Assembly: GCA_943356465.1 (NCBI GenBank) | Contig: CALREX010000004.1 | Coordinates: forward strand, 112,448 to 176,447 | Length of the DNA stretch: 64,000 bases | Direction of reading: 5' to 3' | Origin: Candidatus Peribacteria bacterium | Lineage (GTDB): Bacteria > Patescibacteriota > Gracilibacteria > UBA1369 > LOWO2-01-FULL-3 | Shown here: positions 7,807 to 49,421 of the stretch, piece after piece | Numbering within the stretch: position 1 is the first letter of the stretch | How the letters are laid out: each line of letters begins with the position of its first letter | Position numbers and translations under genes: made by a program | The notes under the pieces: model-generated | The model's input: the letters and a program-made list of their open reading frames with translations, nothing else | The model's database searches: none | Told to the model about the DNA's origin: nothing

Positions 7807-7890
7807 AAAACCACTTTAAAAAACAATCTTATCGAGTGTTGACTTTTTAGCCATAAAATGTTTTCATTGCAAGCCTAAATACCATAAGCA

Positions 7891-18042: not shown

Positions 18043-19194
18043 TTATTCATTTGCAGGACATTGCTTGCTGTTTACCAATTTTGTGCAGCCAAGAAGGTTT
18101 TCTAGTGGGGCAAGAGTCTCTATAAGAGTTTTATTTAGATTAGAAAGACTTTGTACAAATATGCCTACGCTGCTATCGCTAACTTCCTTATATTTTACAT
18201 AAAAATTTGAAGACATCTCTTCTCGTAGTTGAACACTGTCATAAGCTTTATCGGTCTGTTCTATAGCATTTGTAGCTTGTTCAGGAGTTACACCGCCACC
18301 GCCTTTTGGTGCGGATTTAGCAAGCCTATCTATTATTCTTGTAGCACCTTCTTTTGGAGGTAGATTGTTTATATTCAGAGCAACAATTCCGGAAAGATAT
18401 TGAGATAAACTTTGATTTGTAGCAGATTCTACTATTTTTTCAGCACCTTGACCGGCAGTTTTTTCTGCAGTTTTTGCGGCAGGAGCAACACCAAATAACG
18501 TGCTTATAAATTCATCCCATTTTTTTGAAACAGCTTCCCATGATGAATTTTCACATATTATATAAGATTTTTTTCTAGTCTGATATTTAGTCTCAAATTT
18601 TGCGAACATAACATCAAAATCTTTATCGGACATTAAATCATTTGCGGTATATTTTTCTTTCATTTCGGAATAAAGCTTTTCCTTAGGATAAAACAATTCT
18701 TCGGGATTTTGGGCCATCCTTGTGCTCAAAATGTCATAAGGCAAATTTATAGCGACTTCTTTGTTTACAATATTTCTAACATAATAAAGCTCTGCTCCAA
18801 GCTCATTATAGCCTTTTTTTAAACTTGGAAGTTTCGAAGTATTACATGTAAGAAAAGCATCACGTATATAAGTTCTCATCTTATCTCTTTGGCTTATCAT
18901 TCCTGCAATATCAGAGGCCTGGCATTTGTTTCTATATAAAACATCATTCCACATTTCTACTATCCCACCAGCAATTCCATCGGCAAAAATTGAAGCTCTC
19001 AGAAAAGCTGTAAAATCCAAATTGCCTTTCGCTAAACATTTTGCAGGACCCAAATTTCCTCCTTCAGTGGGCTGTAGATCCTTTTTATCCTCTGCGTATA
19101 CATAACTGCCACTACATAGCATGTTAAGCATAAGAACGCATAATACTGCGAAATTCCTTATTGTATGTCCGGCTTTTGTCCCCATTCTTGGCAT
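18043..19194 (-). CDS. secreted hypothetical protein (383 aa), last gene of the pilus/giant-protein block
   Basis: Signal-peptide-like N-terminus (IRNFAVLCVLMLNMLCSGSYVYA). Helical, charged body. C-terminus has CTKLVNSKQCPANE. Its start overlaps the upstream gene by 37 nt. Confidence 0.7.
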   Translation of the reverse strand: MPRMGTKAGHTIRNFAVLCVLMLNMLCSGSYVYAEDKKDLQPTEGGNLGPAKCLAKGNLDFTAFLRASIFADGIAGGIVEMWNDVLYRNKCQASDIAGMISQRDKMRTYIRDAFLTCNTSKLPSLKKGYNELGAELYYVRNIVNKEVAINLPYDILSTRMAQNPEELFYPKEKLYSEMKEKYTANDLMSDKDFDVMFAKFETKYQTRKKSYIICENSSWEAVSKKWDEFISTLFGVAPAAKTAEKTAGQGAEKIVESATNQSLSQYLSGIVALNINNLPPKEGATRIIDRLAKSAPKGGGGVTPEQATNAIEQTDKAYDSVQLREEMSSNFYVKYKEVSDSSVGIFVQSLSNLNKTLIETLAPLENLLGCTKLVNSKQCPANE

Positions 19195-21074
19195 ACGTTA
19201 TTGGTTTTTTCTAATAAATCTTTATAATTTGCGAATGTTTGACTCATGAAATTCAATTCTTTTATAAGTGTTTGTGCATAAAGTGCTGTATTCGTAGCCG
19301 GTTCAGAAGTTTCTATATTGCTAAGTTCTTTTTTCGCCGCTGCAGTAGATATCGCCAATTCTTTTTGTACATCACTGAAAATCTTATCCTGTGTGCTGGC
19401 GGCGGGAGCATTTTCTATCTGAAATTTTGTAACACTATCTACTTTTAAAGAACTGAACAAAAGAGGTTGATACCTGTCTATAAATTTTTTCCAACTTTCA
19501 AAAATATTTTTTCCCAAGATTATGTCACCGCCTGAAGGCGTTGGAATAGGGGCTTTTATAACTACAAATTTCATATCAAAAAGAGATCCCATGGCATTTT
19601 TACATTTTGCACTTTCAAGCATATTTCCTGTGGATTTATTTGGAATGAGAGAATGATCCAAAGTTTTCTTCAATATATCATTTATTTTTTTGACTTCACA
19701 AAGTACACAACTCTTACCTGGATAGTAGGTGGACAAAGTCTTTTTGATTAGCTTTATAGTGACACAAACAGATGCTTTAGCGGAAAAAGCTTTTGATGCA
19801 AATCCTACTCCTGCACCTGTCAAAGTGCTTGAAGAGTTATTTAGCAGGGAATTACCGACATCTCCAAGACTTGTAAATCCTGCATCTCCAAAAGTAGTGC
19901 CAAGACCTCCATAAGAGTCACCACCATCTGCAACATTCGGATCTTCCGGACACCAAGCATCAGCCCATTTATCTTTTGGAGCGGGTGATAGCGTTTCTTG
20001 CGTAGTATTTTGTGTAGGAACATTTAGATCTTTTGACTTCTCTCCAGGCGTACCTGCACCTTCGTTTCCATCACCTAACGATTTATCTTCACTTCCAGAT
20101 GGATTACCATTTGCATTGCCTGAGTCGACAGGATTCCCGGATGCCTGATCGGGAGCCTTGTTTGAAACTTCTTTTTCAAAATCATCCAAAGCGGAAGAAA
20201 TGTCATCTTTAACAGCACATAAATCTTTTTTTAGAACATCAACAGTTATCTTTTTATCACCAATAGGCGTAGTCGCAGTACCTGCTACTCCGACTGAGTC
20301 AGTCTTCTGTCCATCTGTGCCTCCACCTCCGGCATTTCCAATACCTCCTGTTCCACCATTCCCAGTTGAACCTCCACTACCATTAGCATTTTTATCCTTA
20401 AGATCTATTTTATAACCGGAAACAAAATCAGGGCCACCGGAAACATAATTTTCATTTTTATAATCATCTGCAGTAGGCAAATAAGGAGATTTCAAACCAT
20501 CAACATAAGGCTTACCTATAGTGTTTTGCACAACATCAATAAACAAAACTTCTTCAATTTTAGAAAGATCATAAATCAAATCAAATCCTGAATCGGAAAG
20601 ATCATTATTTGAAAAAATTTCACTTGGACGAATCGAAGCATCAACTTCTTGTTGCAGGTCATAAGATTCTTTCAAAATATCATAAGATTCTTTTACATTT
20701 TGCATTACAGCAAGAGCTCTCTCCTGAGTCATGCTTGGAGATTTATTGTAAGAGGTGTTAAGAATAGGCAGGATACTACCACCAACAACACTCTTGGCCT
20801 CCATTGTCGTAAGACCGTATTTTTTTGCTACATCCGTCAAAGCATTTTTTCCCGGAACTACAAAACGTTTTACATAAATCAAATTATACAAATCCTTTCC
20901 TTTTGATGAAGGTCCAAAAACATCTTTCCAGTCAAAGAAATTTCCAAAAGCTGTAATCTCATTCCACCAATTCAGTTCACCATAGGCAATATTTACCTGA
21001 TAAATCTTTAGACCTATCATTGAGATTATTAGTCCGGAAGCAATTCCTATAATGATTGGTAATATTTTTTTCAT
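19158..21074 (-). CDS. membrane-anchored hypothetical protein (638 aa) with Gly/Asn/Ser low-complexity linker
   Basis: N-terminal TM (ILPIIIGIASGLIISMIGL), a G-rich tract (GSGGSTGNGGTGGIGNAGGGG), a Cys-containing C-terminal domain, and a Cys 11 residues from the end. 2-nt gap to the upstream gene. Confidence 0.75.
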   Translation of the reverse strand: MKKILPIIIGIASGLIISMIGLKIYQVNIAYGELNWWNEITAFGNFFDWKDVFGPSSKGKDLYNLIYVKRFVVPGKNALTDVAKKYGLTTMEAKSVVGGSILPILNTSYNKSPSMTQERALAVMQNVKESYDILKESYDLQQEVDASIRPSEIFSNNDLSDSGFDLIYDLSKIEEVLFIDVVQNTIGKPYVDGLKSPYLPTADDYKNENYVSGGPDFVSGYKIDLKDKNANGSGGSTGNGGTGGIGNAGGGGTDGQKTDSVGVAGTATTPIGDKKITVDVLKKDLCAVKDDISSALDDFEKEVSNKAPDQASGNPVDSGNANGNPSGSEDKSLGDGNEGAGTPGEKSKDLNVPTQNTTQETLSPAPKDKWADAWCPEDPNVADGGDSYGGLGTTFGDAGFTSLGDVGNSLLNNSSSTLTGAGVGFASKAFSAKASVCVTIKLIKKTLSTYYPGKSCVLCEVKKINDILKKTLDHSLIPNKSTGNMLESAKCKNAMGSLFDMKFVVIKAPIPTPSGGDIILGKNIFESWKKFIDRYQPLLFSSLKVDSVTKFQIENAPAASTQDKIFSDVQKELAISTAAAKKELSNIETSEPATNTALYAQTLIKELNFMSQTFANYKDLLEKTNNVCQEWGQKPDIQ

Positions 21075-21076
21075 GT

Positions 21077-21748
21077 TTATTTACATTCTGCCGAAGTGGC
21101 ATCAATAAATTTTCCTGGGAATCTTAGTATTTGATTTTTTACTTTTGCCAAAGCGATCTTATATTTGACCATGCCATTTAAAATGCTCACGTACTTTTTA
21201 TGAGCCGGATAAGCTATTCGAAATTCATCATAAGCGGATATTGTTGCTTCCATTACAGTCCTGGCTTGTGTGTACTCTTTGTCAATCATCTCATCACGAG
21301 CGGTTTTTTGATCCAAAAGATTTTCGGCGGTAGGATTACTTGGAAGATTTTCAGTAGGCAAAAATCCTTTCATTTGATTTAACGTATCAACATAAGCAAG
21401 ATAAATATCCATCGCTTGCATTGAAATACAGTAAGTACTTACATTTTTTTCCCCGCATTTTTCAACATAATTCGATGAGGTAACATCCTTAGGAGGATTA
21501 AAATCGGGGTTTTTATAAAAATCCTCACCTCCATCAGTCATATCAGTTAGCATGGCAAGTTTATCATTGAAATACTCATTCATGGATTCATGATATTTGG
21601 CTTGCACAAAGAAAAAACTGGCAGTAGGAACTTTGAAGTCATAATAACCTTTTTTCCCTGTTTCAGCATAAATTGCATAACCTCCACTTATTAAAAATGT
21701 AGTTATTAGTGCTGAAACAAAACTGATTATTATATTTCTAAATTTCAT
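21077..21748 (-). CDS. secreted/anchored hypothetical protein (223 aa)
   Basis: N-terminal hydrophobic leader and a helical body. Internal Cys pair (EKCGEKNVSTYC). Ends in SAECK. 3-nt gap to the upstream gene. Confidence 0.7.
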   Translation of the reverse strand: MKFRNIIISFVSALITTFLISGGYAIYAETGKKGYYDFKVPTASFFFVQAKYHESMNEYFNDKLAMLTDMTDGGEDFYKNPDFNPPKDVTSSNYVEKCGEKNVSTYCISMQAMDIYLAYVDTLNQMKGFLPTENLPSNPTAENLLDQKTARDEMIDKEYTQARTVMEATISAYDEFRIAYPAHKKYVSILNGMVKYKIALAKVKNQILRFPGKFIDATSAECK

Positions 21749-21751
21749 TTT

Positions 21752-22345
21752 TTAATTTGTAACACATTTGTTTAAGAAACCGGGCGATTTATTTTTAAAT
21801 GTAGAGAAAAATCCATACATTTGTGAAATTTCAGAATTCAAGTCTTGAAGCCTGTTGTCGATAGCTTTATATTTTTCAATAAGCATTGTGGCTTTTTTTT
21901 GTGCACTATTACTCCTTACATAATCCATAAGTTTTTGCTTCGCCAGAGAAATATATGTGTCAGCAATTTCACGACATATTACATAATTTGTATATTCTTC
22001 ACTTTGTAAGTTTCCAAGAACATTTGAATTCAAGGTAACCATTCCAAAAACTAAATTAATTCTTCTTTTATATGCCATGTATTTTGCTATAGATGTGTTT
22101 AAAAGTGTTGTGTCAGAGCTTTTATTTTGAAAATTTGTTTCAAGAAATTTCAAAAATTCCAAAGTATCTATATCGTAAAGAGGAGTAAGCCTTTGCCTGC
22201 ATTCACTTAACGGAGCTGATTTCAGGGAAGTTTCAAGATTTTTTTTCATACCTGTAAGTTCAGGAGGAAAATCTTCAGCAAAAGAAATAGCGGATATTAA
22301 AATGCTTATAGTTAAAGCCAAAATGAGGAGTGAGGATTTTTTCAT
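21752..22345 (-). CDS. secreted hypothetical protein (197 aa)
   Basis: Clear signal peptide (LLILALTISILISAISFA). Helical body. Ends in NKCVTN. 4-nt gap after the giant gene stop. Confidence 0.7.
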   Translation of the reverse strand: MKKSSLLILALTISILISAISFAEDFPPELTGMKKNLETSLKSAPLSECRQRLTPLYDIDTLEFLKFLETNFQNKSSDTTLLNTSIAKYMAYKRRINLVFGMVTLNSNVLGNLQSEEYTNYVICREIADTYISLAKQKLMDYVRSNSAQKKATMLIEKYKAIDNRLQDLNSEISQMYGFFSTFKNKSPGFLNKCVTN

Positions 22346-22349
22346 AATT

Positions 22350-25300
22350 TTATTTTACAACATCAATTGAATTACTCTTAGAGAAAATATAATTATCATC
22401 TTTATTAGAGATAATTGTGAAAAATCTATCTGTCGGTAAAATCATACTGCTGTTTGAAATAGTAGATTTACAAGGGCAGGTATTGCATTCTCCAGGCACT
22501 ACATATATACCCGGAACAGATTCTTTCTTGGTAAATTCAGTCGTAACTTGTGATTTATCATCGCTTGGATCAAATATGTCAGTGCCATTTTTTAGCTCAG
22601 TTGCATCATCCGTGCCGCCGCCATCAGTATCTTTTGCTATCGGTTTATTTTCAAAACAGTTATAAACATCAAGAACTCTGCCGGCAAGAATAAACAAATC
22701 TCCACGTGTCATAGCCTTTTCAGGTGTCTTTGCCTCATCGGTGGTAACAATGAAATTGTTTTTTATAGCTTTATTCTGAGACAGGTATTTAGTAAGATTC
22801 TGTGCTGCTTGCATGAAATTTACATACCAAGGAATACCAATTCGAACTTTATCAACATTGATTACATTTTCCATTTGAAGAGCACCAAGAATAATTTTCA
22901 CAGCTTCAGCCAAATTTATTGTATTTTCAGGTTTGAAAGGATGTAAATTCTTCGCGTCACTTTCTCCACGATATCCATCTATAAGAGCCCTCAACGCCGC
23001 TTCTTTAATATATGGATAGAACCAATCCAGAGGCTGTTTGTATTGAATATCTGAGAATCCACCATGTGCTTCGTCAGCAGAATAAGGCTTGTATGCTTCA
23101 GGTCTTGGTTCTATACAAAGCATTTTCAAAAGAATTTTTACAAACTGACTTCTGTTCACCAAATCATCAGGTTTAAGATAAACACCATTCTCGGATTTTA
23201 TACCGTCTATAATATCTTTTTCATAAAGATCATTCGCTATTTTCTTTAGATCCGAAGATAAATTACCAAAATCCGCGAATGGAGAAACAAATGCATTAGC
23301 AGATTTTTCAAGTGTATTAGCATTTGAAGTCTTGGCAAAGGGAACATCTTTTGCTCCAACAATTTTTGCAGTAATAGTATTGTTTACATGTACTTCAGCC
23401 ACAACTTTTTCATCAACAATAAGATTCATAACAAGTGGATCTTTTGTGTAATCATTGGTTTTTTTCATTGCCTTAAGCCTATTATCCAGCACTGTGATAT
23501 TTCCGGAAGGTTCGATTGCGGCAAAAAGAATGTTATTTTTGCTGTCAACGATAGTTGCTCCACCTGGATTAAATTTATTATCAACAGGCAAAATTTTCAC
23601 ATCAATTCCATCGTTAGGATTCAAATCAATAACATTTGTTCCATATAAATTTGAAGAATTTATGTCAGTATTGGCATCTCCGACAATATAAACTGTGGCT
23701 TCAGTGTATCCATTTTTATCAATGATTGTTAGGCTTGTAGAAGCCATATTTGATTTATTTGCAGTGTTTATCTTTACTTCGTATCCGTCAGCAAGCTCAC
23801 CTATACTTCCGGTTTTTGGATTTATTTTTGCAATAATTTTCCCATTTTCATCTTCAATCAAAATCATGTCATCCAAAGAAAAATCTTTAATATTATAGGA
23901 TCCATCATCATCAGTTTTATATTTTCCATCTTTATCAGCAGAAGATGTTTTGATTTTTTCAAGTTTAGGAACAAGAGTAAGATTGCCATCCACAGATCTA
24001 TATACATAACGTTCTCTCATAAGACTGAAAGGAAACTTTGCCAAAGATGGATCAACTTTTCCCGAGGCTATAGGTGTTCTTTCCAGAGGTTTATCCAAAG
24101 AGATTTTTGGAGCAAAAACATTTATTGTTATCTTTTCAGATGACGAATTTCCTGAAGCATCAACAACATTTAAAATAGCATAATGCATACCGATATCCCC
24201 TTCATTTACAAAAGGTCCGATATTGAATTTTGGGTTACTCTTGTCATTTGTTGGATTGCCGTCACCGTCTTCATCGATAGATAGATTTACATCACTCCAT
24301 ATTAATTTCGGAAACTGAGTGACATTTTTCTTGTCACTTTCAAAAGGCAGCATCTCGATCGAATATTCTGTAACTTTCCCATTTGCATCAAAAGAATTCT
24401 CTGCATCAAGAACAAAACTTTGAAATATAGGGACATTGAAAGTCGTTTGAGATATCGCAGGCAAAGGTGGTTCTTTATCGGAACATAAAGGTGCCTCATA
24501 CATCGGATAGTAAGAGATGAAGTTCACTCCATTTTTCAAAATATAATCCGAAACAGCACTATTTGAAGATGAAACATATATGTCACCTTTCTTTGATTTA
24601 GGTGTTTCTTTATAATTTAATTTTAGATAAACCTCTCCTCCCATCGATAAAACAATATCTTTGTCGCTGTCGCCATCGCTATCAATGAAAAGAGTATTCA
24701 CAAAACTGCCAAGCTCCGAAGTATAATTCAAAACACTTTCATTTTTTCCATCAGCTACTATATAAAATCCTTTTGGCGCACCGCCGGAATCTGCAGACAC
24801 AGGATCGATTTTTGAGGCATCACTTGGCTCCAAAGCTATCATCTTTTCTTTCGTTTCATCAGTGAAAAGAGAACCTTTTATCTGTTGCTTATGGTCTACA
24901 GATAAATCTATTTTTTGTAAGGTATTATCAACAAATAGATTTTTTTTGCTTTCATCCTCAGCAATAAACTTCATAAATTCATCGTAGTTGTTTATCTTCG
25001 ACAAGACATCATTATTTGATTGATTCAAATCGTTTGCATAAGCCAACATGCTGTTTCTTATGGCATACATTTTTTCCATTTCAGGATAATCTGTAAATGA
25101 ATCAATATTTAAATCTTTTATATCTGAAAGTTTCTTATTAAAAATAGGATTATCTTTTTTCAAAACAGATTCTGTCGCAGTTAGATAAAATTTCTCAGGA
25201 TAATTTTTATCCAAATCTGCAGAAGAGACATATTTATTAATTTCATCACTGAAAATTTTAAGTTCATTATTAAGTTGAACAAAAACTTCAGGAATGGCCG

Positions 25301-28300
25301 TCTGTTTTTTAACAGCATCTTTAACGTCATCAAGAGCTTTCTTTGTAGTATCTTCAACACCGGAAACACCTTTTTTTACAGCTTCTTTGGCTTTTTCCGC
25401 CGCTGCCTCAGTAAGTTTCTTAACAAGATTATTTACAAATGTCTGGAATGGCAAACCTGTAAATTTATTAATTCCATCAACTATTTTCTTTGTTTGTTCA
25501 TTCATTTTATCAGCTCCAAGTTTTGCTATGTAGTAAATAAAACTTGTATCAATTCCAAAATTCAATTTTGCTTCTACTTTTATTTGATCTACATAATCAT
25601 ATTGAATAGCAGGCATTTGAAGTGAAAATTGCTTAAGAATAGGCAAGATGGATTGTGCAGACGGTTGAGTCAAAGTCTCTATCTCTGTAGCAAGACTTGT
25701 CTCAAGAATTGGAACAAGTCCTTTTTTCAAAAGACATAGAATCTTTATAACTTTTTTAAGACTTGCAACTATTTTTAATGTTGCATCAGGTAATTTTGGA
25801 ATTTTTGGAGGACGTGGTAGGTCAGGCAAATTCGGAAATGCAAGATTTGGAAGATCAGGAATATTTGGCATAACAAATTCAGGAAAATTTTTGATCCAGT
25901 CGGGAATATCAAATTTTGTATCTCCAAAAATTTTCGAAATATCAAGAGTGTAATCATCAGGAATAACCTCAGGAAGCGTTATTGTAGGAAGATTTGGTAA
26001 ATTTATAGACTCAGGTTTAAACACAATATCAGGCCATACGATATGTACACCTGTTTTTATTTGAGAAACATCAAAAACAATATCAGGCCATTTTGGCAGA
26101 GGAATTACAGGAGGATCCGGAATATTTACAAACAAGCTAAGCAAAAGACCAAGCTTACTAAATCTATCGCTTTTATTACACTCATTACAAGATTTTTCAT
26201 AATCTATTGATAGATCAAATATAGCATGCCAGTTTTTGAATGTTTTTATGGCATCCGCAATAGCCTTAGTCCATGATGCGGCTATTTTATTTTGACGTTT
26301 GATATATCCACCCATAAATTGCATTACGCTGTCCATATAACAAATAATCTGTGTCGCATACTTTGTTTCAAGACTTCTAAGTTTTAAAATCTCAGATGGC
26401 AATTTCGCAATTTTATCCAATTTATCCATCAAAGTCTTGATGGAAGTAACGTAGCTTTTTAAATTTACAGTTACTTTATCGCAAAGAGTTTTTCTATAAT
26501 TATTTTCATCACACTTCCAATACTGAGTGACTCTGTCGATTTCCTTGCCTTCAAAATCAACCCACAAAGAAGCCTGTCTCTTCCATTTTTCAATTTCAGC
26601 CTGTGTTAGGGCAGGAACTTTTATAAGTATTTCTTTTCCTTCAATTTGAATAAAAGGAATTGAATTTACAGCTCGTAGGAAATCATTTACGCTTTTTATC
26701 TTTTTAAAATTTTTACCTGCTGCAGCAAATTTTGCACCTAATTGCCCAAAATCAGGAATTATCAAATATATATCGGGGAAATCAAGAAGTTTATTGTAAA
26801 TTTCATCAGCCTCTTTATCCAGCCAGTTGGTAATAACACTAGGGAATCCAGGGATTCTTACATTTACTTTGCTTGCAGCAGAAATAGGCAATGTATCGCT
26901 TGAATAACTGTTCCCCATGGAGATAGCATCAGTACCTGTTGAAGCGTCTCCATTCGAAGTAACGGTTGAAGTGCCGATATCTGGATCGACAAATACATTT
27001 TTAGCTTTTGCAACAGCATCATTTATATCTTGAAGAAAATTCGGACATCCACCAAGCAAACTTGGAGGTATAGAAGTTGCATAACACATTCCGGCAGCAC
27101 CGGTAGGTCCTACACAAACAGCTGTTCCAAGTCCCATAGTTAAAGTAGGGGATATATACAAACGAACAGAAGAAACAGAATTTGAAGGAAGAAAAAATGC
27201 AAAATAAGGAGGATTTGGTGTTCCAAAAGAGATCACTGGATATCCCGGAGTTGCGCCACTTGGAGCCAAAAACGCATAATTATAAGGAATTGGCAAACAT
27301 CCTCCTCCGCTACACTTGAAATTGCTAAATGTCTGAGCTGCATTATAAACACTGTCCCCCATGCTCTTAAAATCAAGCTGTTTAATGGTCTGCCAAAGAT
27401 CCGGACAACCATTATTATCCTTGTCTGCAGAATTTGATTGAACCATTCCAGTCAAAGAATTTTTTATGGAATTTGGTATACCGCTTGTACCTATTGTCTT
27501 TATCAAATCTTTTGGAGATGGAAGTCCATTCTTTTTAAATTCTTTGTCATACTCATCTCCCAGCCCTTTTCCAGAGCTTTTTATAACTTTTTTCTCATAA
27601 TTCACATACTGATCTCCTATACCTTTAGAGTACAAATAAATAATATCGCCATTTGGATTTATACTCGGACGTACACGAATATCAGGATATTTGTCTTTTT
27701 CATATCCGCCAAAATCATATCCAATATCAAAATTTATAGAAGGGATTAAATCTACTGTGGATGTGTATTTTATTGTCCTCTTGCCATTTGCAGGGACAGA
27801 AATATTTTTTATTAACTTGGATCTCAGGCTCATTCCAGAATCTATCCACTCAAGTTTGTCAGTACAATTGGTGTCTGCACATTTAAGGCTGTCCTGTTGA
27901 AGAGTCATTGTCAAAGGAGTCAAATCTGAAACCATTACTCCATTTAGATTTGATCCTGATTTATTTTCAAGAGTGATTGTAAATTCTATCTTATCTCCTG
28001 AAGCAACAGTATTTCCATTCACATCCAAAGCTGTTTTTGTGGAAGAAGTAAACTCCGGAATCTTCGAGATAGGCTTGAATTTATATTGTTTATTGTCTTT
28101 TTTAAATTCATCGTTATCAAGAGCGCCAAATTCTACGAAATCTTGAGTTACTCCGTCAGGATTTGGAGATAGATTTTCCATGCCAGGCAAATAGACAAAA
28201 AGGTTATTCTTCATGTCGGTATCTGCGTTTATTCCATATCCGAAATTGAAAGAATTTCCATAATTTGTTTCTAGCCCTTTACATGATTTTCCGTCATTTT

Positions 28301-34097: not shown

Positions 34098-34222
34098 AAA
34101 AACGGTTCTTCTAATTCAAAAATATACCATAAAAAACTCAACAAAAACAATTACCCAAAGCCAAAAAATCGACTTTTTGAAAAACTTTCAGTTGACGGAT
34201 TTTCCCAAGGTTTTTTACCACC

Positions 34223-34250
34223 AAAAAAGGCCTCCATAAGGAAGCCTTTT
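34223..34250 (-). terminator. hairpin plus U-run just downstream of the pilin gene (probable partial terminator/attenuator)
   Basis: The minus strand reads AAGGCTTCC-TTAT-GGAGGCCTT followed by TTTTGG, 23 nt after the pilin stop and about 125 nt before the giant gene start. Confidence 0.5.
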
Positions 34251-34272
34251 AGAAAGTGAGATCAGATCAGAA

Positions 34273-34788
34273 TTACTGAGTCAATATAGCATAACACCAC
34301 TCTGGAGCAGTTTCATTAGTAATCGCAGTTATAGTTCCAGCAATAGCGGCTGTACAAGTACTATTTGCTTTCTCCTTCTGCTCAACTTTAGCATAAAGTC
34401 CAAACTTATAAGAAGCGCTTGGATCTTTTTTGTAATAGTACCCACCACCATTACAAGTAGCAACAGCAGCATATACGGAATCTGTTGTCTGAGGATCGGT
34501 TGGCAACTTACCCCCAAACTCAGCTGCAAATGCAGGAATCCATGTAGTATTTGGAGCAAGATACCCAGTAGCAAGTCCGCTGGCTATACATCCAGTAGTG
34601 GAAGGATAATCCTTTCCTCCCAAATTAGCATTTACCAAAACTTTTTGTATTTTTTGTAAGTCAGCAATTCTTGCTACATCCCTTCCTTTCGCAGGTGCGC
34701 CAAGAATACTTGGTAGGAAAGCGACAGCCAAAATACCGATTATCGCAATAACAATCAAAAGCTCAATGAGGGTGAAACCTTTTTTCAT
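34273..34788 (-). CDS. type IV pilin / pseudopilin with prepilin-type N-terminal cleavage-methylation motif
   Basis: MKKGFTLIELLIVIAIIGILAV has a class III signal (G-1, F+1, E+5), followed by RDVARIADLQKI. Four Cys are consistent with two disulfides. 171 aa. Confidence 0.9.
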   Translation of the reverse strand: MKKGFTLIELLIVIAIIGILAVAFLPSILGAPAKGRDVARIADLQKIQKVLVNANLGGKDYPSTTGCIASGLATGYLAPNTTWIPAFAAEFGGKLPTDPQTTDSVYAAVATCNGGGYYYKKDPSASYKFGLYAKVEQKEKANSTCTAAIAGTITAITNETAPEWCYAILTQ

Positions 34789-34830
34789 AGGAAAATGAGT
34801 TAAATTTAAATAAAGGAATTTCTATTCACA

Positions 34831-34859
34831 AGCATAGTCTCAGTGCAAAAAAAATTCAA
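34831..34859 (-). promoter_or_regulatory. candidate internal promoter for the pilin gene
   Basis: The minus strand reads TTGAAT (34859-34854), a 17-bp spacer, then TATGCT (34836-34831), in the 78-bp gap between pilC and the pilin gene. Confidence 0.3.
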
Positions 34860-34866
34860 GATTATT

Positions 34867-36138
34867 TTATATTGCACCAGCGATATTTGAAAGTTTCATG
34901 ATTGGAAGCATGATCGCGGCAACAACAGTTCCTACTGTAACACCAATGAAAATCAAGATTACAGGTTCTATGATTTTTGAAATTCCTGCAACAGCAGTAT
35001 CCAGTTCATTTTCATAAAAATCCGCAACTTTCGCCATGATTTCATCAAGTTGAGCAGTCTTTTCTCCTACATCAATCATGCTGATCAGCATTGGAGGAAA
35101 AAGATCATTGTCATTTAGATTTTCAGCCAATGGAATACCTTGTTTTATGTCTTCCATCGCAAGGAGAAGCTTTTTTCTGAATACTTCATTCCCGATAGAA
35201 TTCGCCGTAATTTCCATAGTTTTCACTATAGAAATATTACTGTCCAAAAGATTACTCAAAGATCTGGCAAATCTCGCAAGATAAGCCTCTCTGAATAATT
35301 TTCCGAAAATAGGTATTGAAATCTTTGTTTTATCAATCGCATATTTTCCAAAATCAGTTTTACTGATAAGCATATAAGCTCCAACCAAAAGCAAAATACC
35401 GGCAACTAAAATAAATTTTTGATTTATGAAAAAATCACTCAATGCAACTACAATTTTTGTAATCAAAGGAAGCTCGGCTCCACTGGAAGTGAAAAGTTCC
35501 TGCAATTTTGGTATTACAAGTACCAACATGGCGATAACAACACCTATAAGCAAAGTAAAAACCACAGTAGGGTACATCATTGCGCCTTTTACTTTACCTG
35601 TAATAGCATGAGCTTTTTCAACATCTTTAGCCAGATTATCCAAAACTCTGGAAAGCTGTCCCGAAGCCTCTCCGGACTCAATCATTCCGATTTCCTGATC
35701 TGCAAAAATTTCTGGATAAGTCAGCATGGATTCAGACAAACTTTGTCCTGATTCGATATCACTCGCAATACCATTTATAACCATTTGAAGTTTTGGTTCG
35801 TTTGCACTCTGCGTAATAAGTGAATGCAAAGCCTTAACCATGGGCATTCCGGCATTTATCATAACTGAAAGAAGATGATAAAACGTAGCTTTTGCCTCAA
35901 GACTTATAGAAGAATGACTTATAAAATAATAATTTATCTTTCTGAAAGTATCGACTATAGGATTTCCGGTAAGAGAAACTTCACCAAAAGTTCTCTTTTC
36001 AAGTGTTATAATTCCGGTCTTATCTTCTTGAATATTCAAAACCACATTTTCGGCTTTATTTAGAGCCTTTTTGCCACTGGAAAGTTTGAATGATTCAGTT
36101 CCTTCGGTAGCGAAATTTGTTTTTGCAGTTTCTGCCAT
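34867..36138 (-). CDS. pilC: type IV pilus platform protein PilC (GspF family)
   Basis: Two GspF-type repeats with three TM segments (e.g. MMYPTVVFTLLIGVVIAMLVLVIPKL, IIEPVILIFIGVTVGTVVAAIMLPI). 423 aa. 1-nt gap after pilB. Confidence 0.9.
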   Translation of the reverse strand: MAETAKTNFATEGTESFKLSSGKKALNKAENVVLNIQEDKTGIITLEKRTFGEVSLTGNPIVDTFRKINYYFISHSSISLEAKATFYHLLSVMINAGMPMVKALHSLITQSANEPKLQMVINGIASDIESGQSLSESMLTYPEIFADQEIGMIESGEASGQLSRVLDNLAKDVEKAHAITGKVKGAMMYPTVVFTLLIGVVIAMLVLVIPKLQELFTSSGAELPLITKIVVALSDFFINQKFILVAGILLLVGAYMLISKTDFGKYAIDKTKISIPIFGKLFREAYLARFARSLSNLLDSNISIVKTMEITANSIGNEVFRKKLLLAMEDIKQGIPLAENLNDNDLFPPMLISMIDVGEKTAQLDEIMAKVADFYENELDTAVAGISKIIEPVILIFIGVTVGTVVAAIMLPIMKLSNIAGAI

Positions 36139-36139
36139 T

Positions 36140-37540
36140 TTATTCTGATTTACGTGCTACACGATATACTTCTTCAATAGTTGTTTTACCTTGAAGAGCC
36201 TTCACAATACCTGCCTGTTCAAGAGTGACCATGCCGTTTTCCTGAGCAGCTGCTTGTATATCAATCATACTGCCATTATCAGAAAGCAATTTTCTGATTT
36301 TATTATTCATTCTTAATACTTCATAAAGACCTATACGTCCTTGATATCCGATATGATTACATTCATCACATCCTACAGCATCATAAAATTTCATACCTTT
36401 AAGAAGTTCGGGTTCTATTTCTCCTTCAGCCTTCATTTCTGACATAGCCTTTTTTATCATCTCTAGAGTTTCCGGACTGACTACAGCCTCTTTTTTACAC
36501 TTTTGACAAACTTGCCTTACAAGTCTTTGTGCGATGATAAGTTCCAGAGAAGATATTAAAAGATATGGCTGTATACCCATATTTATAAGACGAGTCAAAG
36601 ATTCAACGGCGCTATTCGTATGAAGTGTTGAAAACACGAGATGTCCTGTAAGTGAAGCTTCAATAGCTGTATCAGCAGTTTCTTTGTCACGTATTTCTCC
36701 AACCATTATAATATTTGGATCTTGACGAAGTGCGGCCCTCATCCCCATCGCAAATGAATAATTGATGTCATGATGAACCTGACTTTGATTAAGGCCATCA
36801 AGCTGAATTTCCACCGGATCCTCAATAGTAAGAATATTTACATCAGTAGTGTTTAATTTACTTAGACAAGAATAAAGAGTGGTCGTCTTACCTGATCCGG
36901 TAGGACCTGTGTTTATAATAATTCCATTTGGGGCGGAAAGAGCGGCAGTAAGATTTTTGAGTGATGTTCCTGTGATTCCAAGTTCTGAAAGATCCGGAAT
37001 TTTTCTGGATTTATCCTGTATACGCATAACGATCTTTTCCCCGTTTACAGTAGGTAAAGTTGAAACACGGAGATCCATCTGTTTTCCTTCTTTTGTTGTA
37101 ACATCCGCACGTCCATCTTGAGGAATACGTTGTTCGTCAATTTTCAAATTCGACATGATTTTTATTCTCGAAACAACCGCAGGATGCAGATTTGTAGGAT
37201 ATTCAACTACATGTCGTAAAACTCCATCAATTCTATATCTCAAACGAACCCTGTTTTGTAGAGGTTCGATATGTATATCACTGGATCTCAAATCAAGTGC
37301 ATACGAAATCGCAAGCATAACCATTTGTGGAATGTTTGCGGCCAAAATAGCATCCTTCAGCTGTTTTAGCTTTTCGCTTTCAGGTGGTTGAGTAGCATCT
37401 TTGACTGGAGGAGCCACTACAGCAGTGACAGGTGCAACAACAGGAGCAGCCTGCAAAGGTTGTGGCTGGGTCACGACTGGAGTTACTGTAGGAACCGGTT
37501 GTTGATTGTTTGTATTATCCACTTTATCTGAAATATGCAT
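36140..37540 (-). CDS. pilB: type IV pilus assembly ATPase PilB (GspE family)
   Basis: SDIHIEP, Walker A GPTGSGKTTT, Asp box, Walker B IIMVGEIRD, His box TGHLVFSTLHTN, and a tetracysteine CQKC...CDEC. The N-terminus is a P/V/T/Q low-complexity tract. Confidence 0.9.
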   Translation of the reverse strand: MHISDKVDNTNNQQPVPTVTPVVTQPQPLQAAPVVAPVTAVVAPPVKDATQPPESEKLKQLKDAILAANIPQMVMLAISYALDLRSSDIHIEPLQNRVRLRYRIDGVLRHVVEYPTNLHPAVVSRIKIMSNLKIDEQRIPQDGRADVTTKEGKQMDLRVSTLPTVNGEKIVMRIQDKSRKIPDLSELGITGTSLKNLTAALSAPNGIIINTGPTGSGKTTTLYSCLSKLNTTDVNILTIEDPVEIQLDGLNQSQVHHDINYSFAMGMRAALRQDPNIIMVGEIRDKETADTAIEASLTGHLVFSTLHTNSAVESLTRLINMGIQPYLLISSLELIIAQRLVRQVCQKCKKEAVVSPETLEMIKKAMSEMKAEGEIEPELLKGMKFYDAVGCDECNHIGYQGRIGLYEVLRMNNKIRKLLSDNGSMIDIQAAAQENGMVTLEQAGIVKALQGKTTIEEVYRVARKSE

Positions 37541-38141
37541 TAATTTGTACCGAGAAATTTATGATTTCCTCTTTTTTACCGGAAAGATCACTGTTATTTT
37601 CAAAATTTAATCTCACTGAAGAAACATCCATAAGTCTCACTTTGTCAGCCAAAGATCCGGAAGTTTCTATGTAATGCAGAAATTTTTCAAAATTAGCCTT
37701 AGAGCTCCTTATGCTCATTCTAAGGGGCAAAATTGAGTAATTATCTTTTTTTACAACGCTTTGATATTCGATATTTGAAACTTCAAAAACACTATCTTTG
37801 GTAGAAAGCTTTTGCTCGAATGTATCAAATTTTCTTGTAAGTTCAGTATAAGCATCAGAGGAAGGAAATACTTCTATAAGATTTGCTTCTATTTCGGATT
37901 TTAGTTGATTTATAGAATTTTTTTTGGATTCGAATAAAGCTTTTTCATTTGCCCCTTGTTCCTTTAGAGCGGCAATATACGAAGTGTTTTTATCAACAAA
38001 AGTAGTTATTGTTGAATACTCCTGCCATTTTGTATAAGTAAAAAATCCGAATGCTATCAACAAAATTCCACATAAGATGGCATAAGACTTTACTTGAGCA
38101 TCTTCCCTTTTTGTAGCTAGTAAATAAGATAGATTTGGCAT
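37524..38141 (-). CDS. PilO-like bitopic membrane protein (205 aa)
   Basis: Short cytoplasmic N-terminus, one TM (SYAILCGILLIAFGFFTY), a coiled-coil, then a ~100-aa domain. Its position is immediately upstream of pilB, overlapping it by 17 nt. Assignment rests on topology and context only. Confidence 0.45.
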   Translation of the reverse strand: MPNLSYLLATKREDAQVKSYAILCGILLIAFGFFTYTKWQEYSTITTFVDKNTSYIAALKEQGANEKALFESKKNSINQLKSEIEANLIEVFPSSDAYTELTRKFDTFEQKLSTKDSVFEVSNIEYQSVVKKDNYSILPLRMSIRSSKANFEKFLHYIETSGSLADKVRLMDVSSVRLNFENNSDLSGKKEEIINFSVQINAYFR

Positions 38142-38143
38142 AA

Positions 38144-39346
38144 TTATTTTTTATCTTTTAGGTTTAATGAAAGTTTCAAACTTGCAGTATATCCATCATC
38201 AAGTGATCCGGATTTAGAGAAAGAACGCATCTCCGCATTACTGAAAAGAGTCGAATTATTTAAAGAATCTATCAAGTCAGTAATAAGTGTGAAATTTGTG
38301 GTATCAAATATTTTTGTTTCTCCATTGATGGAAAGTTTTTTCGATTCACTGTCGAAATCGTAGCTTGTATATCTGATGCCTCCAAGTTGGTTGTAGACAT
38401 CTTGATTATAGCTTGTGTCTACAGCCATTGTGCGCAAATTGATTTCATTTATTATGTCAGACCATCTTATTCTTTTATTTTTAATTTGTTGAATAACATT
38501 TAAATCATTGACGACAATTGAATTCACTTTATTCACAAGTTTGTATAAATCTTCATCTTTAAGGGAATCAAAATCAGTGGATTGAATAAGATTTTTCAAT
38601 TCAGAGTTTGAAATAAGTGCAACAATTTGTATGTAATTTTTGTAATCTCTCTTTGCCTGCATGTCAGTTGAATCTTTTAATTCTGCGGCTTTTGTATTCA
38701 ATTTATCAATAAGTTTTTGCTGAAAAAGAGTCATAGTATCTTGAGTAGATGCATCTGTCGTATAGAGCGGAGCATCAAATTCTTTTGAAAAAATATCTTT
38801 TGCAGCGATAAAACTTTTCTTCAGTTCAGGCTTTGCGCTGGCTATTTTTTCTCCTGCTGAAGATTTTTCTGCCTGAGTTGAAGTCTTGGTATTAAAAATT
38901 TCATAATTTTGAGCAAATGCATCTCCGTAGTATCCAAATTCATCAAGATATCCTTTTAACAAAAGATATTTGTTGAAATTAAGTTCAGTTTTAAGTGAAA
39001 TTATATCAGTATTGTCATTTGCTAGCTGTTTTGTAAGGCTTGTGTATCCCAAAGGGGATGAAACAAGGCTAAAAACATCTGTCAAAGTTACCACAAAAAA
39101 GACGATTGCAACCAAGAAAGCTCCTACAATCCCCACAAATCCATATTTTAAAATAGTTAGCAAGCCACTTTGTTGAGGAACAACATCTTTAAGCAGGGAA
39201 AAATCTATAGTTGGAGCATCTTCAAGAAGCTTGCCTTCAGGTGCATTGGATGACGTCAGGTTCTTAAGAATATCAGAACTTCCATCTTTTTTATCACCTT
39301 TAGAGTCCAAAGGGTTTACAAGATTTGGAGTTACCGAATTTTCCAT
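38144..39346 (-). CDS. pilus-cluster bitopic membrane protein (400 aa), function unknown
   Basis: Disordered ~60-aa N-terminus, one TM (YGFVGIVGAFLVAIVFFVVTL), and a ~315-aa external region. It is the first gene of the block, with a 2-nt gap to the next gene. Confidence 0.6.
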   Translation of the reverse strand: MENSVTPNLVNPLDSKGDKKDGSSDILKNLTSSNAPEGKLLEDAPTIDFSLLKDVVPQQSGLLTILKYGFVGIVGAFLVAIVFFVVTLTDVFSLVSSPLGYTSLTKQLANDNTDIISLKTELNFNKYLLLKGYLDEFGYYGDAFAQNYEIFNTKTSTQAEKSSAGEKIASAKPELKKSFIAAKDIFSKEFDAPLYTTDASTQDTMTLFQQKLIDKLNTKAAELKDSTDMQAKRDYKNYIQIVALISNSELKNLIQSTDFDSLKDEDLYKLVNKVNSIVVNDLNVIQQIKNKRIRWSDIINEINLRTMAVDTSYNQDVYNQLGGIRYTSYDFDSESKKLSINGETKIFDTTNFTLITDLIDSLNNSTLFSNAEMRSFSKSGSLDDGYTASLKLSLNLKDKK

Positions 39347-39377: not shown

Positions 39378-39406
39378 ATTATACCAAATTTAAGGTAAAA
39401 CGTAAA
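39378..39406 (-). promoter_or_regulatory. candidate promoter of the pilus operon
   Basis: The minus strand reads TTTACG (39406-39401), a 17-bp spacer, then extended -10 TGgTATAAT (39386-39378). It lies ~30 nt upstream of the start at 39346. Confidence 0.35.
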
Positions 39407-49278: not shown

Positions 49279-49374
49279 AAAATAAAAAATTAAGACAATA
49301 GCTGTCTTCTATCTTAACACAATTTATTGATCTTTCAATGCGGAAAATAAAAACAGGATTTTGACAGTGAAATA

Positions 49375-49403
49375 TTGACAGCCTACATCAAAAGTGTGAA
49401 AAT
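49375..49403 (+). promoter_or_regulatory. candidate promoter for the methyltransferase-kinase fusion gene
   Basis: TTGACA (49375-49380; a second TTGACA is at 49361), a 17-bp spacer, then TGtGAAAAT (49395-49403). It lies 19 nt before the ATG at 49422. Confidence 0.3.
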
Positions 49404-49421
49404 ACGCTCTAAAATAACGCA

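What the first reader, a model, noticed from the sequence alone, without database searches (positions are those of the whole stretch)
18043..39346. Type IV pilus genes, a 3915-aa SLH-anchored surface protein and four secreted proteins form one 21-kb co-directional block
Ten consecutive minus-strand genes lie here. They are a 400-aa bitopic protein, a PilO-like protein, PilB, PilC and a single prepilin-motif pilin, then the giant protein and four leader-bearing proteins of 197, 223, 638 and 383 aa. Junctions are very tight. The pilus genes are separated by a 2-nt gap, a 17-nt overlap and a 1-nt gap. The giant gene and its four followers are separated by gaps of 4, 3 and 2 nt and a 37-nt overlap. 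Only the pilin is flanked by real intergenic DNA. None of the five downstream proteins has a prepilin motif, so they are not minor pilins. PilD, PilT and PilM are not in the window. In reduced-genome episymbionts, type IV pili are implicated in host contact and DNA uptake. A wall-anchored adhesin-like giant encoded directly behind the pilin suggests an integrated attachment apparatus whose components are otherwise uncharacterised.
Basis: partly seen in the sequence, partly recalled or inferred. Interest (0 to 1): 0.8.

Follow-up and report, generated by a model that had tools for sequence, protein, structure and literature searches.

The report
Giant wall-anchored protein five-gene cassette
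Beside the type IV pilus genes of an uncultured Peregrinibacteria (CPR) bacterium lies a five-gene operon for a 3915-residue wall-anchored protein and four unknown secreted proteins; the operon is kept intact in every code-11 relative examined, but its tie to the pilus rests on gene neighbourhood alone.

Summary

The block looks like three units.
- A pilus-assembly operon: 400-aa protein, weak PilO-like, PilB, PilC.
- A pilin gene followed by a conserved terminator-like hairpin.
- A five-gene operon: the giant plus four leader-bearing, cysteine-containing proteins. It is preceded by an invariant extended -10-like element.

The giant plus its four partners was present, in the same order, in 50 of 50 related code-11 loci that reached far enough. 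The giant belongs to a family of at least 386 sequence clusters. Its non-repetitive architecture is conserved and ends in SLH repeats. None of its conserved cores, nor any of the four partners, matched Pfam, NCBIfam or PDB sequences.

A prepilin gene lies directly upstream in 22 of 28 informative loci of the closer clade, and in 0 of 19 more distant loci. The unrelated uvrA neighbour is kept about as often (26 of 35), so adjacency does not prove a functional link.

Best reading: an autonomous wall-anchored surface complex, possibly used together with pili. Its function is inferred, not shown.

The parts
39378..39406 (-). Promoter-like site (TTTACG, 17 nt, TG-TATAAT) in front of the 400-aa gene
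   Evidence: Consensus scan, 10 of 12 matches plus a TG extension. The region as a whole has no more promoter-like sites than its shuffles, so this is a candidate only.
38144..39346 (-). 400-aa bitopic membrane protein, first gene of the pilus-assembly operon. Its position and topology resemble PilN; no family match.
   Evidence: ORF. One hydrophobic stretch at residues 60-100. No Pfam or NCBIfam hit. 2-nt gap to the next gene.
37524..38141 (-). 205-aa bitopic protein, weakly PilO-like
   Evidence: PF04350 PilO at E 0.003, 18.1 bits, below the cut-off of 22. No PDB sequence match. Overlaps pilB by 17 nt.
36140..37540 (-). PilB-type assembly ATPase
   Evidence: PF00437 T2SSE, 1.3e-128, full length.
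34867..36138 (-). PilC-type platform protein
   Evidence: PF00482 T2SSF, 6.5e-56, two repeats. Three hydrophobic segments.
34273..34788 (-). Type IV pilin, the only prepilin gene in the window (MKKGFTLIELLIVIAIIG...)
   Evidence: N_methyl 3.4e-8. GspG/PilA-type matches. Six-frame motif scan. It evolves fast: 43-46% identity in relatives whose PilC is 87% identical.
34223..34250 (-). Terminator-like hairpin after the pilin (AAAAGGCUUCC-UUAU-GGAGGCCUUUU followed by U's)
   Evidence: Fold at -21.6 kcal/mol, z -2.7. G+C-rich stem plus T-run hairpins with different stem sequences stand at the same place in L004, L007, L011 and L014. The hairpin is kept in the alignment of four close relatives.
34121..34129 (-). 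TGGTATATT, an extended -10-like element 23 nt before the giant's ATG, inside a conserved 125-nt spacer
   Evidence: Invariant in the window, L004, L006 and L007. The spacer is 80% identical overall, while the giant is 71-74% identical in protein. Reading it as a promoter is inference; the consensus scan missed it because it has no -35 box.
22350..34097 (-). Giant protein, 3915 aa (about 429 kDa mature), with a Sec-type leader. Non-repetitive multidomain surface protein.
   Evidence: ORF and translation. Orthologues of 3878-5034 aa, 38% mean column identity over the full length. No tandem repeats. Family of 386 clusters at 50% identity.
32658..33950 (-). Giant residues about 50-480: conserved N-terminal domain with GVVLVGD-P-PVV, PYTDF and PEIWHGV motifs
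   Evidence: 48% mean column identity. No Pfam or PDB match. The AF2 model is confident only for a beta-alpha-beta core. Foldseek found nothing significant; gingipain RgpB scored E 0.39.
28248..28850 (-). Giant residues about 1750-1950: FG-GAP repeat region (fold not modelled here; FG-GAP repeats form beta-propellers elsewhere)
   Evidence: PF13517, 8.7e-10. Found in 9 of 11 and 10 of 11 relatives.
27843..28025 (-). Giant residues 2025-2085: DUF11-type repeat
   Evidence: TIGR01451, 1.4e-6, above its cut-off. PF01345, 1.1e-4.
25398..27350 (-). Giant residues 2250-2900: signature module, Cys- and Pro-rich (CSGGGCLPIPYN, PKWPDIVFD-SQIK-G--IVWPDIVF-PEP, LPDLPRPPKIP). It is the best-conserved part of the protein.
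   Evidence: 49% mean column identity with 72 invariant columns, including relatives at 26% overall identity. No PDB or Pfam match. Defines the family in the exhaustive search.
22902..23027 (-). Giant residues about 3691-3732: the one SLH repeat detectable in this protein, within an SLH-like region of about residues 3620-3810
   Evidence: PF00395, 22.5 bits against a cut-off of 20.8. Strong in relatives, to 1.3e-27.
21752..22345 (-). 197-aa secreted protein (partner 1), three invariant Cys including one at the C-terminus
   Evidence: Alignment of 20 orthologues. No family or PDB match. 4-nt gap after the giant.
21077..21748 (-). 223-aa secreted protein (partner 2). Possible distant paralogue of partner 1.
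   Evidence: Alignment of 23 sequences including the distant group. hhalign against partner 1: probability 65%, E 6e-5. No family or PDB match.
19158..21074 (-). 638-aa secreted protein (partner 3): two conserved domains joined by a low-complexity Gly/Asn/Asp-rich linker, five invariant Cys including a CxxC
   Evidence: Alignment of 22 sequences. No family or PDB match.
18043..19194 (-). 383-aa secreted protein (partner 4), predicted all-helical, five invariant Cys. Overlaps partner 3 by 37 nt.
   Evidence: Alignments. 28 homologues, all named hypothetical where a source names them. AF2 gives an all-helical model with pLDDT 58. No Foldseek or PDB match. The slot-4 protein of the distant group is homologous: hhalign 95.5%, E 1.4e-8.

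Best explanation
The 21-kb block is three adjacent units, not one apparatus.

1. A type IV pilus assembly operon: the 400-aa bitopic protein, a weak PilO-like protein, PilB and PilC.
2. A pilin gene that ends in an intrinsic-terminator-like hairpin.
3. A five-gene operon with its own conserved promoter-like element.

The third unit encodes five proteins that all carry Sec-type leaders.
- The giant is a 429-kDa non-repetitive multidomain protein. In order, it has a conserved N-terminal alpha/beta domain, a variable Ig-like region, FG-GAP repeats, a DUF11 repeat, a 650-residue Cys/Pro-rich signature module, further conserved domains with no family match, and C-terminal SLH repeats.
- The four partners are cysteine-containing proteins of unknown fold. 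Their genes touch or overlap, so they are probably made in fixed proportion to the giant.

The most likely mechanism has four steps.
- All five proteins are exported through Sec.
- The giant is tethered by its SLH end to secondary cell-wall polymer.
- The four partners bind to it, possibly through disulfides, to form a defined extracellular complex on the cell wall.
- In this clade of Peregrinibacteria the cassette sits beside the pilin gene, so pili and the complex may be used together in cell-to-cell contact. The cassette does not depend on that neighbourhood.

Shown here: gene order, conservation, leaders, domains, SLH, the hairpin and the conserved spacer.
Inferred: co-translation, complex formation, disulfide links, wall anchoring in vivo, and any role in host contact.
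For: Cassette autonomy and conservation:
- Giant, p197, p223, p638 and p383 occur in the same order in 50 of 50 unique code-11 loci with at least 4.5 kb downstream. All four were recognised by HMM in 42. In the other 8, leader-bearing ORFs fill the same slots, and the slot-4 protein is homologous by hhalign.
- Junctions inside the cassette run from -95 to +106 nt and are mostly a few nt or overlaps. The pilin-to-giant spacer is 103-165 nt in eight of the nine relatives measured (691 nt in L026) and 175 nt in the window.

Family:
- 386 clusters at 50% identity share the module. Complete members are about 3500-6000 aa, and the module lies at about residues 2000-4500.
- Distant members show the same Pfam pattern.
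- The giant is conserved along its full length, with 38% mean column identity, and has no tandem repeats.

Export and anchoring:
- N-terminal hydrophobic segments with small-residue cleavage sites.
- SLH in this protein and in relatives.
- The window also holds another SLH protein and an LCP-family enzyme.

Cysteines:
- Invariant Cys in all four partners.
- A Cys within the last 16 residues in 20/20, 19/23, 16/22 and 18/18 orthologues. The mature window proteins have 3, 3, 7 and 6 Cys.

Separate transcription:
- The hairpin is conserved in place with different stems in relatives.
- The spacer is 80% identical and carries an invariant TGGTATATT.

Pilin link, clade-limited:
- 22 of 28 loci against 0 of 19.
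Against: - No expression, protein or imaging data were available.
- Both structure models were poor (pLDDT 58 and 40). Fold searches gave nothing, so no biochemical activity can be assigned.
- Complex formation is inferred only from co-occurrence and tight junctions.
- The SLH signal in this particular protein is marginal, with one repeat at 22.5 bits.
- The promoter call rests on an invariant 9-mer in four close relatives.
- The pilin is retained next to the giant even where PilB/PilC are replaced upstream by other genes. That fits a real functional tie and argues against full autonomy.
- In code-25 relatives the giant has no recognisable partners next to it, so the partners may not be obligatory.
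Confidence: 0.6

Rival explanations
1. This is the first reader's model, an integrated pilus-adhesin apparatus. The giant and its four partners work physically with the type IV pilus. They could be a non-pilin tip or base complex, by analogy with PilY1 and its four core minor pilins, or the portal through which the pilus crosses the wall and S-layer. They would be co-expressed with the pilin by read-through of an attenuating terminator.
For: - A prepilin gene lies directly upstream and co-directional in 22 of 28 informative loci of the clade, down to 33% module identity.
- The pilin stays with the giant where the PilC-pilin junction is broken by other genes in L004, L007, L011, L019 and L024.
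- Several relatives carry 2-3 tandem pilins in front of the giant.
- Terminators after major pilin genes are often leaky; this rests on my own knowledge and was not tested here.
- The count of one large FG-GAP-repeat protein plus four small proteins parallels PilY1 plus four minor pilins.
Against: - The cassette is complete without any adjacent pilin in 5 loci of the clade and in all of the distant group. Overall, 0 of 19 loci outside the clade have a pilin.
- uvrA and HTH_17 adjacency is just as conserved.
- None of the five proteins has a class III signal.
- There is no PilY1/PilC-type domain.
- A C-terminal SLH anchor places the giant on the wall, not on a filament tip.
- The conserved promoter-like element and the terminator separate the units.
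Confidence: 0.2
2. The giant plus four is a core structural component of the cell envelope, such as an S-layer-associated scaffold or wall organiser. It would have no specific role in host contact, and its place beside the pilin would be inherited gene order.
For: - Sequence and architecture are conserved across hundreds of clusters and along the whole length. There are no repeats, and the protein evolves far more slowly than the neighbouring pilin: 71-77% against 43-46% identity in the closest relatives. This pattern fits a structural machine better than a host-specific adhesin.
- It carries SLH anchoring.
- The flanking housekeeping genes are equally syntenic.
Against: - FG-GAP repeats, Ig-like domains (Big_1, Invasin_D3), DUF11 and bacterial TSP3 repeats are typical of adhesive or ligand-binding surface proteins.
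- The Ig-like region varies in length between relatives, with up to about 220 inserted residues, as expected for an exposed binding part.
- Published work attributes host contact to giant surface proteins in the sister lineage, but only by inference (PMC8080830).
Confidence: 0.15
3. The giant is an exported enzyme platform. Its N-terminal alpha/beta domain would be a gingipain/caspase-fold (clan CD) protease or another hydrolase, followed by a PDZ-like segment. It would process or attack host surface material, with the four partners as cofactors or inhibitors.
For: - The N-terminal motifs (VVLVGD-P-PVV, PYTDF, PEIWHGV) resemble those I recall from peptidase C25. This is memory, not a test.
- Weak PDZ hits at residues 531-564, and a clear PDZ_6 hit (3.3e-8) at the equivalent place in one distant member.
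- The AF2 core is a beta-alpha-beta sandwich.
- Foldseek lists RgpB gingipain and the Raptor caspase-like domain among its top 50.
Against: - The Foldseek matches are not significant (E 0.24-1.1).
- No Pfam C25, C11, C13 or C14 hit in the window protein or in 22 relatives.
- The profile search against PDB sequences found nothing.
- No His/Cys dyad could be placed with confidence.
Confidence: 0.05

Closest known systems
Giant surface proteins of the Absconditabacteria/Gracilibacteria/Peregrinibacteria clade, as described for Vampirococcus lugosii (PMC8080830) and Peribacteria (PMC4736985)
   Same: They are very large exported proteins with integrin/FG-GAP, DUF11 and Ig-like domains, found in genomes that also encode type IV pili and S-layer components. 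Those papers propose a role in host recognition by inference. The giant family found here reaches code-25 genomes of that clade.
   Different: Those papers list such proteins one by one. They do not describe a fixed five-gene cassette, the 650-residue signature module, the four partner families or the pilin neighbourhood. I found no paper that does.
PilY1 plus the four core minor pilins (FimU/PilV/PilW/PilX) of type IVa pili (PMC7541494)
   Same: One large non-pilin protein with repeats of a kind that form beta-propellers (PilY1 has a C-terminal propeller) and four small proteins are encoded together beside pilus genes. That complex primes and tips the pilus and mediates adhesion.
   Different: The four small proteins here have ordinary Sec leaders and no class III signal. 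There is no PilY1/PilC domain. The giant is three times larger and ends in a wall anchor. The cassette also occurs without pilus genes nearby.
SLH-anchored surface proteins of monoderm bacteria (S-layer proteins; cellulosome anchoring scaffoldins such as OlpB/SdbA)
   Same: They have a Sec leader and SLH repeats for non-covalent attachment to secondary cell-wall polymer, and they act as large platforms that hold other secreted proteins. The comparison with these proteins rests on my own knowledge.
   Different: There are no cohesin or dockerin modules. Only one marginal SLH repeat is detectable in this protein. The partner proteins are unrelated to any known family.
Repetitive giant adhesins (Bap/LapA/SiiE type, RTX adhesins)
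   Same: Similar size, Ig-like domains, calcium-binding-type repeats (TSP3 in relatives) and surface location.
   Different: There are no tandem repeat arrays. The protein has a Sec leader at the N-terminus rather than a C-terminal type I secretion signal. The order of its unique domains is conserved across the family.

Membership tests
Type IV pilus system (type IVa-like) | PilB-type assembly ATPase | tested here: met
   PF00437, 1.3e-128, full length.
Type IV pilus system (type IVa-like) | PilC-type polytopic platform protein | tested here: met
   PF00482, 6.5e-56, two repeats.
Type IV pilus system (type IVa-like) | Pilin with a class III signal peptide (G-F-T-L-I-E, hydrophobic N-terminal helix) | tested here: met
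   PF07963 and TIGR02532. Matches to solved pilins and GspG.
Type IV pilus system (type IVa-like) | Prepilin peptidase PilD | tested here: not met
   No Peptidase_A24 among the window ORFs of at least 110 aa. It may lie elsewhere on the 190-kb contig, which was not available.
Type IV pilus system (type IVa-like) | Alignment proteins PilM/PilN/PilO | tested here: inconclusive
   PilO scores 18.1 bits, below the cut-off of 22. The 400-aa bitopic protein has no match. No PilM.
Type IV pilus system (type IVa-like) | Retraction ATPase PilT | tested here: not met
   There is only one T2SSE protein in the window.
SLH-anchored cell-wall proteins | SLH repeats (usually three in tandem) | tested here: inconclusive
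   One repeat at 22.5 bits against a cut-off of 20.8 in this protein. SLH is clear in 7 of 11 and 8 of 11 relatives, to 1.3e-27. The number of repeats in this protein is unresolved.
SLH-anchored cell-wall proteins | N-terminal Sec signal peptide | tested here: met
   Hydrophobic segment at residues 3-29 followed by AYA-L. Judged by inspection; no dedicated predictor was available.
SLH-anchored cell-wall proteins | Pyruvylated secondary cell-wall polymer (CsaB) in the same organism | not testable with these tools
   Only 64 kb of the genome is available. An LCP-family enzyme and a second SLH protein are in the window.
Minor pilins with a PilY1-type tip complex | Class III signal on the small proteins | tested here: not met
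   No such motif in any of the four. The six-frame scan finds only the one pilin.
Minor pilins with a PilY1-type tip complex | PilY1/PilC C-terminal propeller domain in the large protein | tested here: not met
   No such Pfam hit in the window giant or in 22 relatives. FG-GAP repeats are present instead.
Repetitive giant adhesins (Bap/RTX type) | Long arrays of near-identical tandem repeats | tested here: not met
   Tandem Repeats Finder reports only trivial 30-40-nt repeats.
Peptidase C25 / clan CD (gingipain-like) N-terminal domain | Caspase-like fold with a His/Cys dyad | tested here: inconclusive
   No Pfam or PDB sequence match. The AF2 model has pLDDT 40, with only a beta-alpha-beta core confident. 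Foldseek gives RgpB at E 0.39.

The most novel reading that the evidence does not exclude
The giant and its four disulfide-rich partners form a previously unrecognised, lineage-wide cell-surface machine of Peregrinibacteria and their relatives. It would be a defined wall-anchored organelle built around the 650-residue Cys/Pro-rich module, and it would cooperate with type IV pili to capture, hold or breach host cells. If so, it is a dedicated episymbiont contact apparatus with no counterpart among known secretion or adhesion systems.
Probability: 0.15. Interest if true: 0.85.

Novelty: new variant of a known kind. Interest (0 to 1): 0.55.

Why it matters
How CPR/Patescibacteria cells recognise and hold their hosts is largely unknown outside Saccharibacteria.

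This work turns a one-genome curiosity into a defined object that can be searched for:
- a five-gene cassette present in every related code-11 locus examined;
- a giant-protein family of hundreds of clusters, recognisable by one signature module;
- four orphan protein families that travel with it.

That gives clear targets for metaproteomics, metatranscriptomics, structure prediction with deep alignments, and cryo-ET of enrichment cultures.

The work also shows that the attractive link to the pilus rests only on gene neighbourhood, and that neighbourhood is no better conserved than the one with uvrA. Future work should therefore test the link rather than assume it.

Tried and rejected
Searches that found nothing useful:
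- Pfam and NCBIfam on the four small proteins and the 400-aa protein gave nothing above noise.
- Profiles of 11-23 orthologues for each small protein and for four segments of the giant, searched against all PDB sequences, gave nothing credible. The only hit below E 0.001 was a 56-residue match of p197 to glycogen phosphorylase at 24 bits, which I judged to be helical noise.
- Rfam found nothing in 17000-41000.
- A structured leader in the pilin-giant spacer is not supported. RNAalifold finds A-U-rich pairs with almost no covariation, and only the terminator hairpin is kept.
- Pfam at E up to 0.1 on the unknown block at 18-10419 gave nothing.

Structure prediction:
- AF2 of p383 with 25 sequences gave pLDDT 58, all helical. 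Foldseek against PDB had a best E of 1.5.
- AF2 of giant residues 30-720 with 9 sequences gave pLDDT 40. Foldseek had a best E of 0.12.
- The tool rules limited the alignments to hits from the word-indexed search, so they were too shallow.

Homology tests between the proteins:
- p197 against p223 is only weak (65%). The other pairs are unrelated.
- The small proteins are not related to the giant's module.
- A search for the four partners next to code-25 giants found nothing, even with filters off and E up to 10.

Tool failures and limits:
- The first homology search with the whole giant timed out.
- Word-indexed searches with giant segments returned only 2 and 8 hits, because proline-rich and other common words swamped the candidate list.
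- The consensus terminator scan missed the pilin hairpin; folding found it.

Full report
**1. The observation**

- In the pilus part: a 2-nt gap, a 17-nt overlap and a 1-nt gap.
- Around the pilin: 78 nt before it and 175 nt after it.
- In the giant part: gaps of 4, 3 and 2 nt and a 37-nt overlap.

PilB (T2SSE, 1.3e-128), PilC (T2SSF, 6.5e-56) and the pilin (N_methyl, a weak GspG-type match, solved pilins) are secure. The 'PilO-like' call is weak, at 18.1 bits against a cut-off of 22. The 400-aa bitopic protein matches nothing.

A six-frame scan finds a single prepilin motif in the whole window. The remaining window ORFs are housekeeping or unknown genes, and none is PilD, PilT or PilM. Upstream of the block on the same strand are rplJ and rplL. 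Downstream, and convergent, are an HTH_17 gene and uvrA.

The hairpin after the pilin is real. It has an 11-bp stem, a 4-nt loop and a U tail, with dG -21.6 kcal/mol and z -2.7.

**2. Which organism**

The signature module of the giant (residues 2250-2900) retrieved 29 loci from species-representative genomes. Nearly all are named Peregrinibacteria or Peribacteria MAGs. A further 67 loci came from metagenomes. The window therefore comes from a Peregrinibacteria-type CPR bacterium that uses the standard stop codons. The exact contig occurs in two public assemblies of one study.

**3. The five downstream proteins**

Each has one N-terminal hydrophobic segment followed by a small-residue site: AYA-L, SFA-E, IYA-E, AYG-E and VYA-E. 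None has a class III motif.

The four small proteins have no Pfam, NCBIfam or PDB sequence relatives, even with profiles built from 18-23 orthologues.
- All carry invariant cysteines.
- The mature window proteins have 3, 3, 7 and 6 Cys.
- Nearly every orthologue has a Cys within its last 16 residues.

This fits extracytoplasmic, disulfide-bonded proteins. The odd cysteine counts hint at intermolecular links, but that is inference.

p197 and p223 may be distant paralogues (hhalign 65%). No other pair is related, and none resembles the giant's module. AF2 predicts p383 as all-helical, but with low confidence (pLDDT 58). Foldseek finds nothing for it.

**4. The giant**

Pfam sees only FG-GAP repeats (residues 1805-1866), one DUF11 repeat (2025-2085) and a faint PDZ (531-564). 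SLH appears only when the C-terminus is scanned alone, at 22.5 bits. Relatives carry clear SLH repeats, down to 1.3e-27, together with Ig-like domains (Big_1, Invasin_D3, Glyco_hydro2_C5) and bacterial TSP3 repeats.

The protein has no tandem repeats. Orthologues align along its whole length at 38% mean column identity.
- Conserved cores lie at residues 100-400, 1700-2000, 2300-2850, 3100-3500 and 3600-3800.
- Length-variable stretches lie at 1200-1700 (the Ig-like region), near 3100 and near 3800.

Apart from the FG-GAP (1700-2000) and SLH (3600-3800) regions, the conserved cores match no Pfam family, and profiles of residues 30-1230 and 2250-3600 match no PDB sequence.

An exhaustive HMMER search with the module found 386 representative clusters (314 at E up to 1e-10). 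Complete members are about 3500-6000 aa long, with the module at about residues 2000-4500. Eleven distant members show the same domain pattern.

The N-terminal domain has motifs that remind me of peptidase C25. The AF2 model was too poor to test this (pLDDT 40), and the gingipain match in Foldseek is not significant (E 0.39).

**5.

After removing duplicates there are 68 code-11 loci and 12 loci that give a long ORF only if UGA is read as sense.

*Giant plus four partners.* Every one of the 50 code-11 loci with at least 4.5 kb downstream has four co-directional leader-bearing genes in the same order.
- In 42 of them all four genes are recognised by HMM.
- In the other 8, which are mainly the distant group, two or three are recognised.
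- The slot-4 protein of that distant group is homologous to p383 by profile comparison (95.5%, E 1.4e-8).
- Junctions inside the cassette are a few nucleotides or overlaps in the relatives as well.
- Code-25 loci have the giant but no recognisable partners next to it.

*The pilin.* I ranked loci by module identity to the window.
- At 33% identity or more, 22 of 28 informative loci have a prepilin gene directly upstream and co-directional. One more has it three genes away, and five have none.
- Below 30% identity, none of 19 loci has one.

*PilB and PilC.* They lie upstream of the pilin only in the window and in five relatives. Elsewhere toxin-antitoxin-like or other genes take that place, yet the pilin stays next to the giant.

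*Control.* In the same clade the convergent HTH_17 gene and uvrA follow p383 in 27 and 26 of 35 loci. These unrelated neighbours are kept about as often as the pilin. Conservation of adjacency therefore cannot, by itself, show a functional tie.

**6. Transcription signals**

Hairpins with G+C-rich stems and T runs follow the pilin in relatives, with different stem sequences.

Between the hairpin and the giant's start codon, the 125-nt spacer is about 80% identical among four relatives whose giants are 71-74% identical in protein. It contains an invariant TGGTATATT 23 nt before the ATG, which looks like an extended -10 box. No structured leader is supported.

A promoter-like site with a TG extension precedes the 400-aa gene.

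The sequence therefore suggests three units: the assembly operon, the pilin, and the giant operon. Partial read-through of the hairpin cannot be excluded without RNA data.

**7. Interpretation**

The unit that evolution keeps together is the giant plus its four partners. The most economical mechanism has three steps.
- All five proteins are exported through Sec.
- The giant is tethered to the wall by its SLH end.
- The four partners assemble on it into a defined extracellular complex.

Its FG-GAP, Ig-like, DUF11 and TSP3 elements, and the variable Ig-like region, fit a ligand-binding surface structure. Its strong conservation and lack of repeats fit a machine or scaffold better than a fast-evolving adhesin. 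By contrast the neighbouring pilin evolves much faster: 43-46% identity where PilC is 87% identical.

A working partnership with pili is possible in this clade. It is supported only by neighbourhood and is not required by the cassette. Published work on this clade notes giant surface proteins and pili in general terms, and proposes host attachment by inference (PMC8080830, PMC4736985). I found no description of this cassette.

**8. Verdict**

I rate it a new variant of a known kind, namely giant wall-anchored surface proteins of CPR bacteria. Interest is moderate (0.55). It offers a well-defined, lineage-wide target for the open question of how these episymbionts contact their hosts, but there is no functional evidence yet.

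Noticed in passing
window 18-10419 (+): Four large co-directional ORFs (408 aa; 909 aa with a leader and about five hydrophobic segments; 1273 aa; 842 aa) have no Pfam hit even at E up to 0.1. This is another uncharacterised block.
   Followed up: partly
window 46549-47862 (-) and 58876-61104 (-): There is a separate 437-aa leader-bearing protein with strong SLH repeats (1.6e-27) and a 742-aa LytR_cpsA_psr (LCP) protein. Both fit an envelope that uses SLH anchoring to secondary wall polymers.
   Followed up: no
window 61646-63073 (+): A 475-aa leader-bearing protein with 16 cysteines and no Pfam match. It recalls the cysteine-rich exported proteins noted for Peribacteria (PMC4736985).
   Followed up: no
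L078-L098 (18 metagenome loci; e.g. L088:2870-15208 region): Giant homologues of about 4110 aa form one long ORF only if UGA is read as sense (code 25). The family therefore extends into Gracilibacteria/Absconditabacteria-type genomes. There it lacks the four partners and any adjacent pilin.
   Followed up: partly
L007:1465-2026 (= L034) and L004:61-2423: Small minus-strand genes sit between PilC and the pilins in L007, or replace PilB/PilC upstream of the pilin in L004. By eye, the L007 genes look toxin-antitoxin-like and the L004 genes NYN-like; none was tested. They break the pilC-pilin junction but leave the pilin-giant junction intact.
   Followed up: no
L007, L011/L044, L015, L019, L026, L048, L061, L066 (upstream of the giant): Several relatives carry two or three tandem prepilin genes in front of the giant, where the window has one.
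   Followed up: no
window 34098-34222 (-): The spacer between the pilin hairpin and the giant's start is more conserved among close relatives than the flanking coding DNA (80% mean identity). It has long invariant blocks besides the -10-like element, for example GTCAAYTGAAAGTTTT and GATTTTTTGGCTTTGG. Their role is unknown, and there is no Rfam match.
   Followed up: partly
window 49324-49830 (-) / 49422-51545 (+): A 168-aa minus-strand ORF overlaps the start of a 707-aa plus-strand ORF that has a methyltransferase domain. One of the two is probably not a gene.
   Followed up: no
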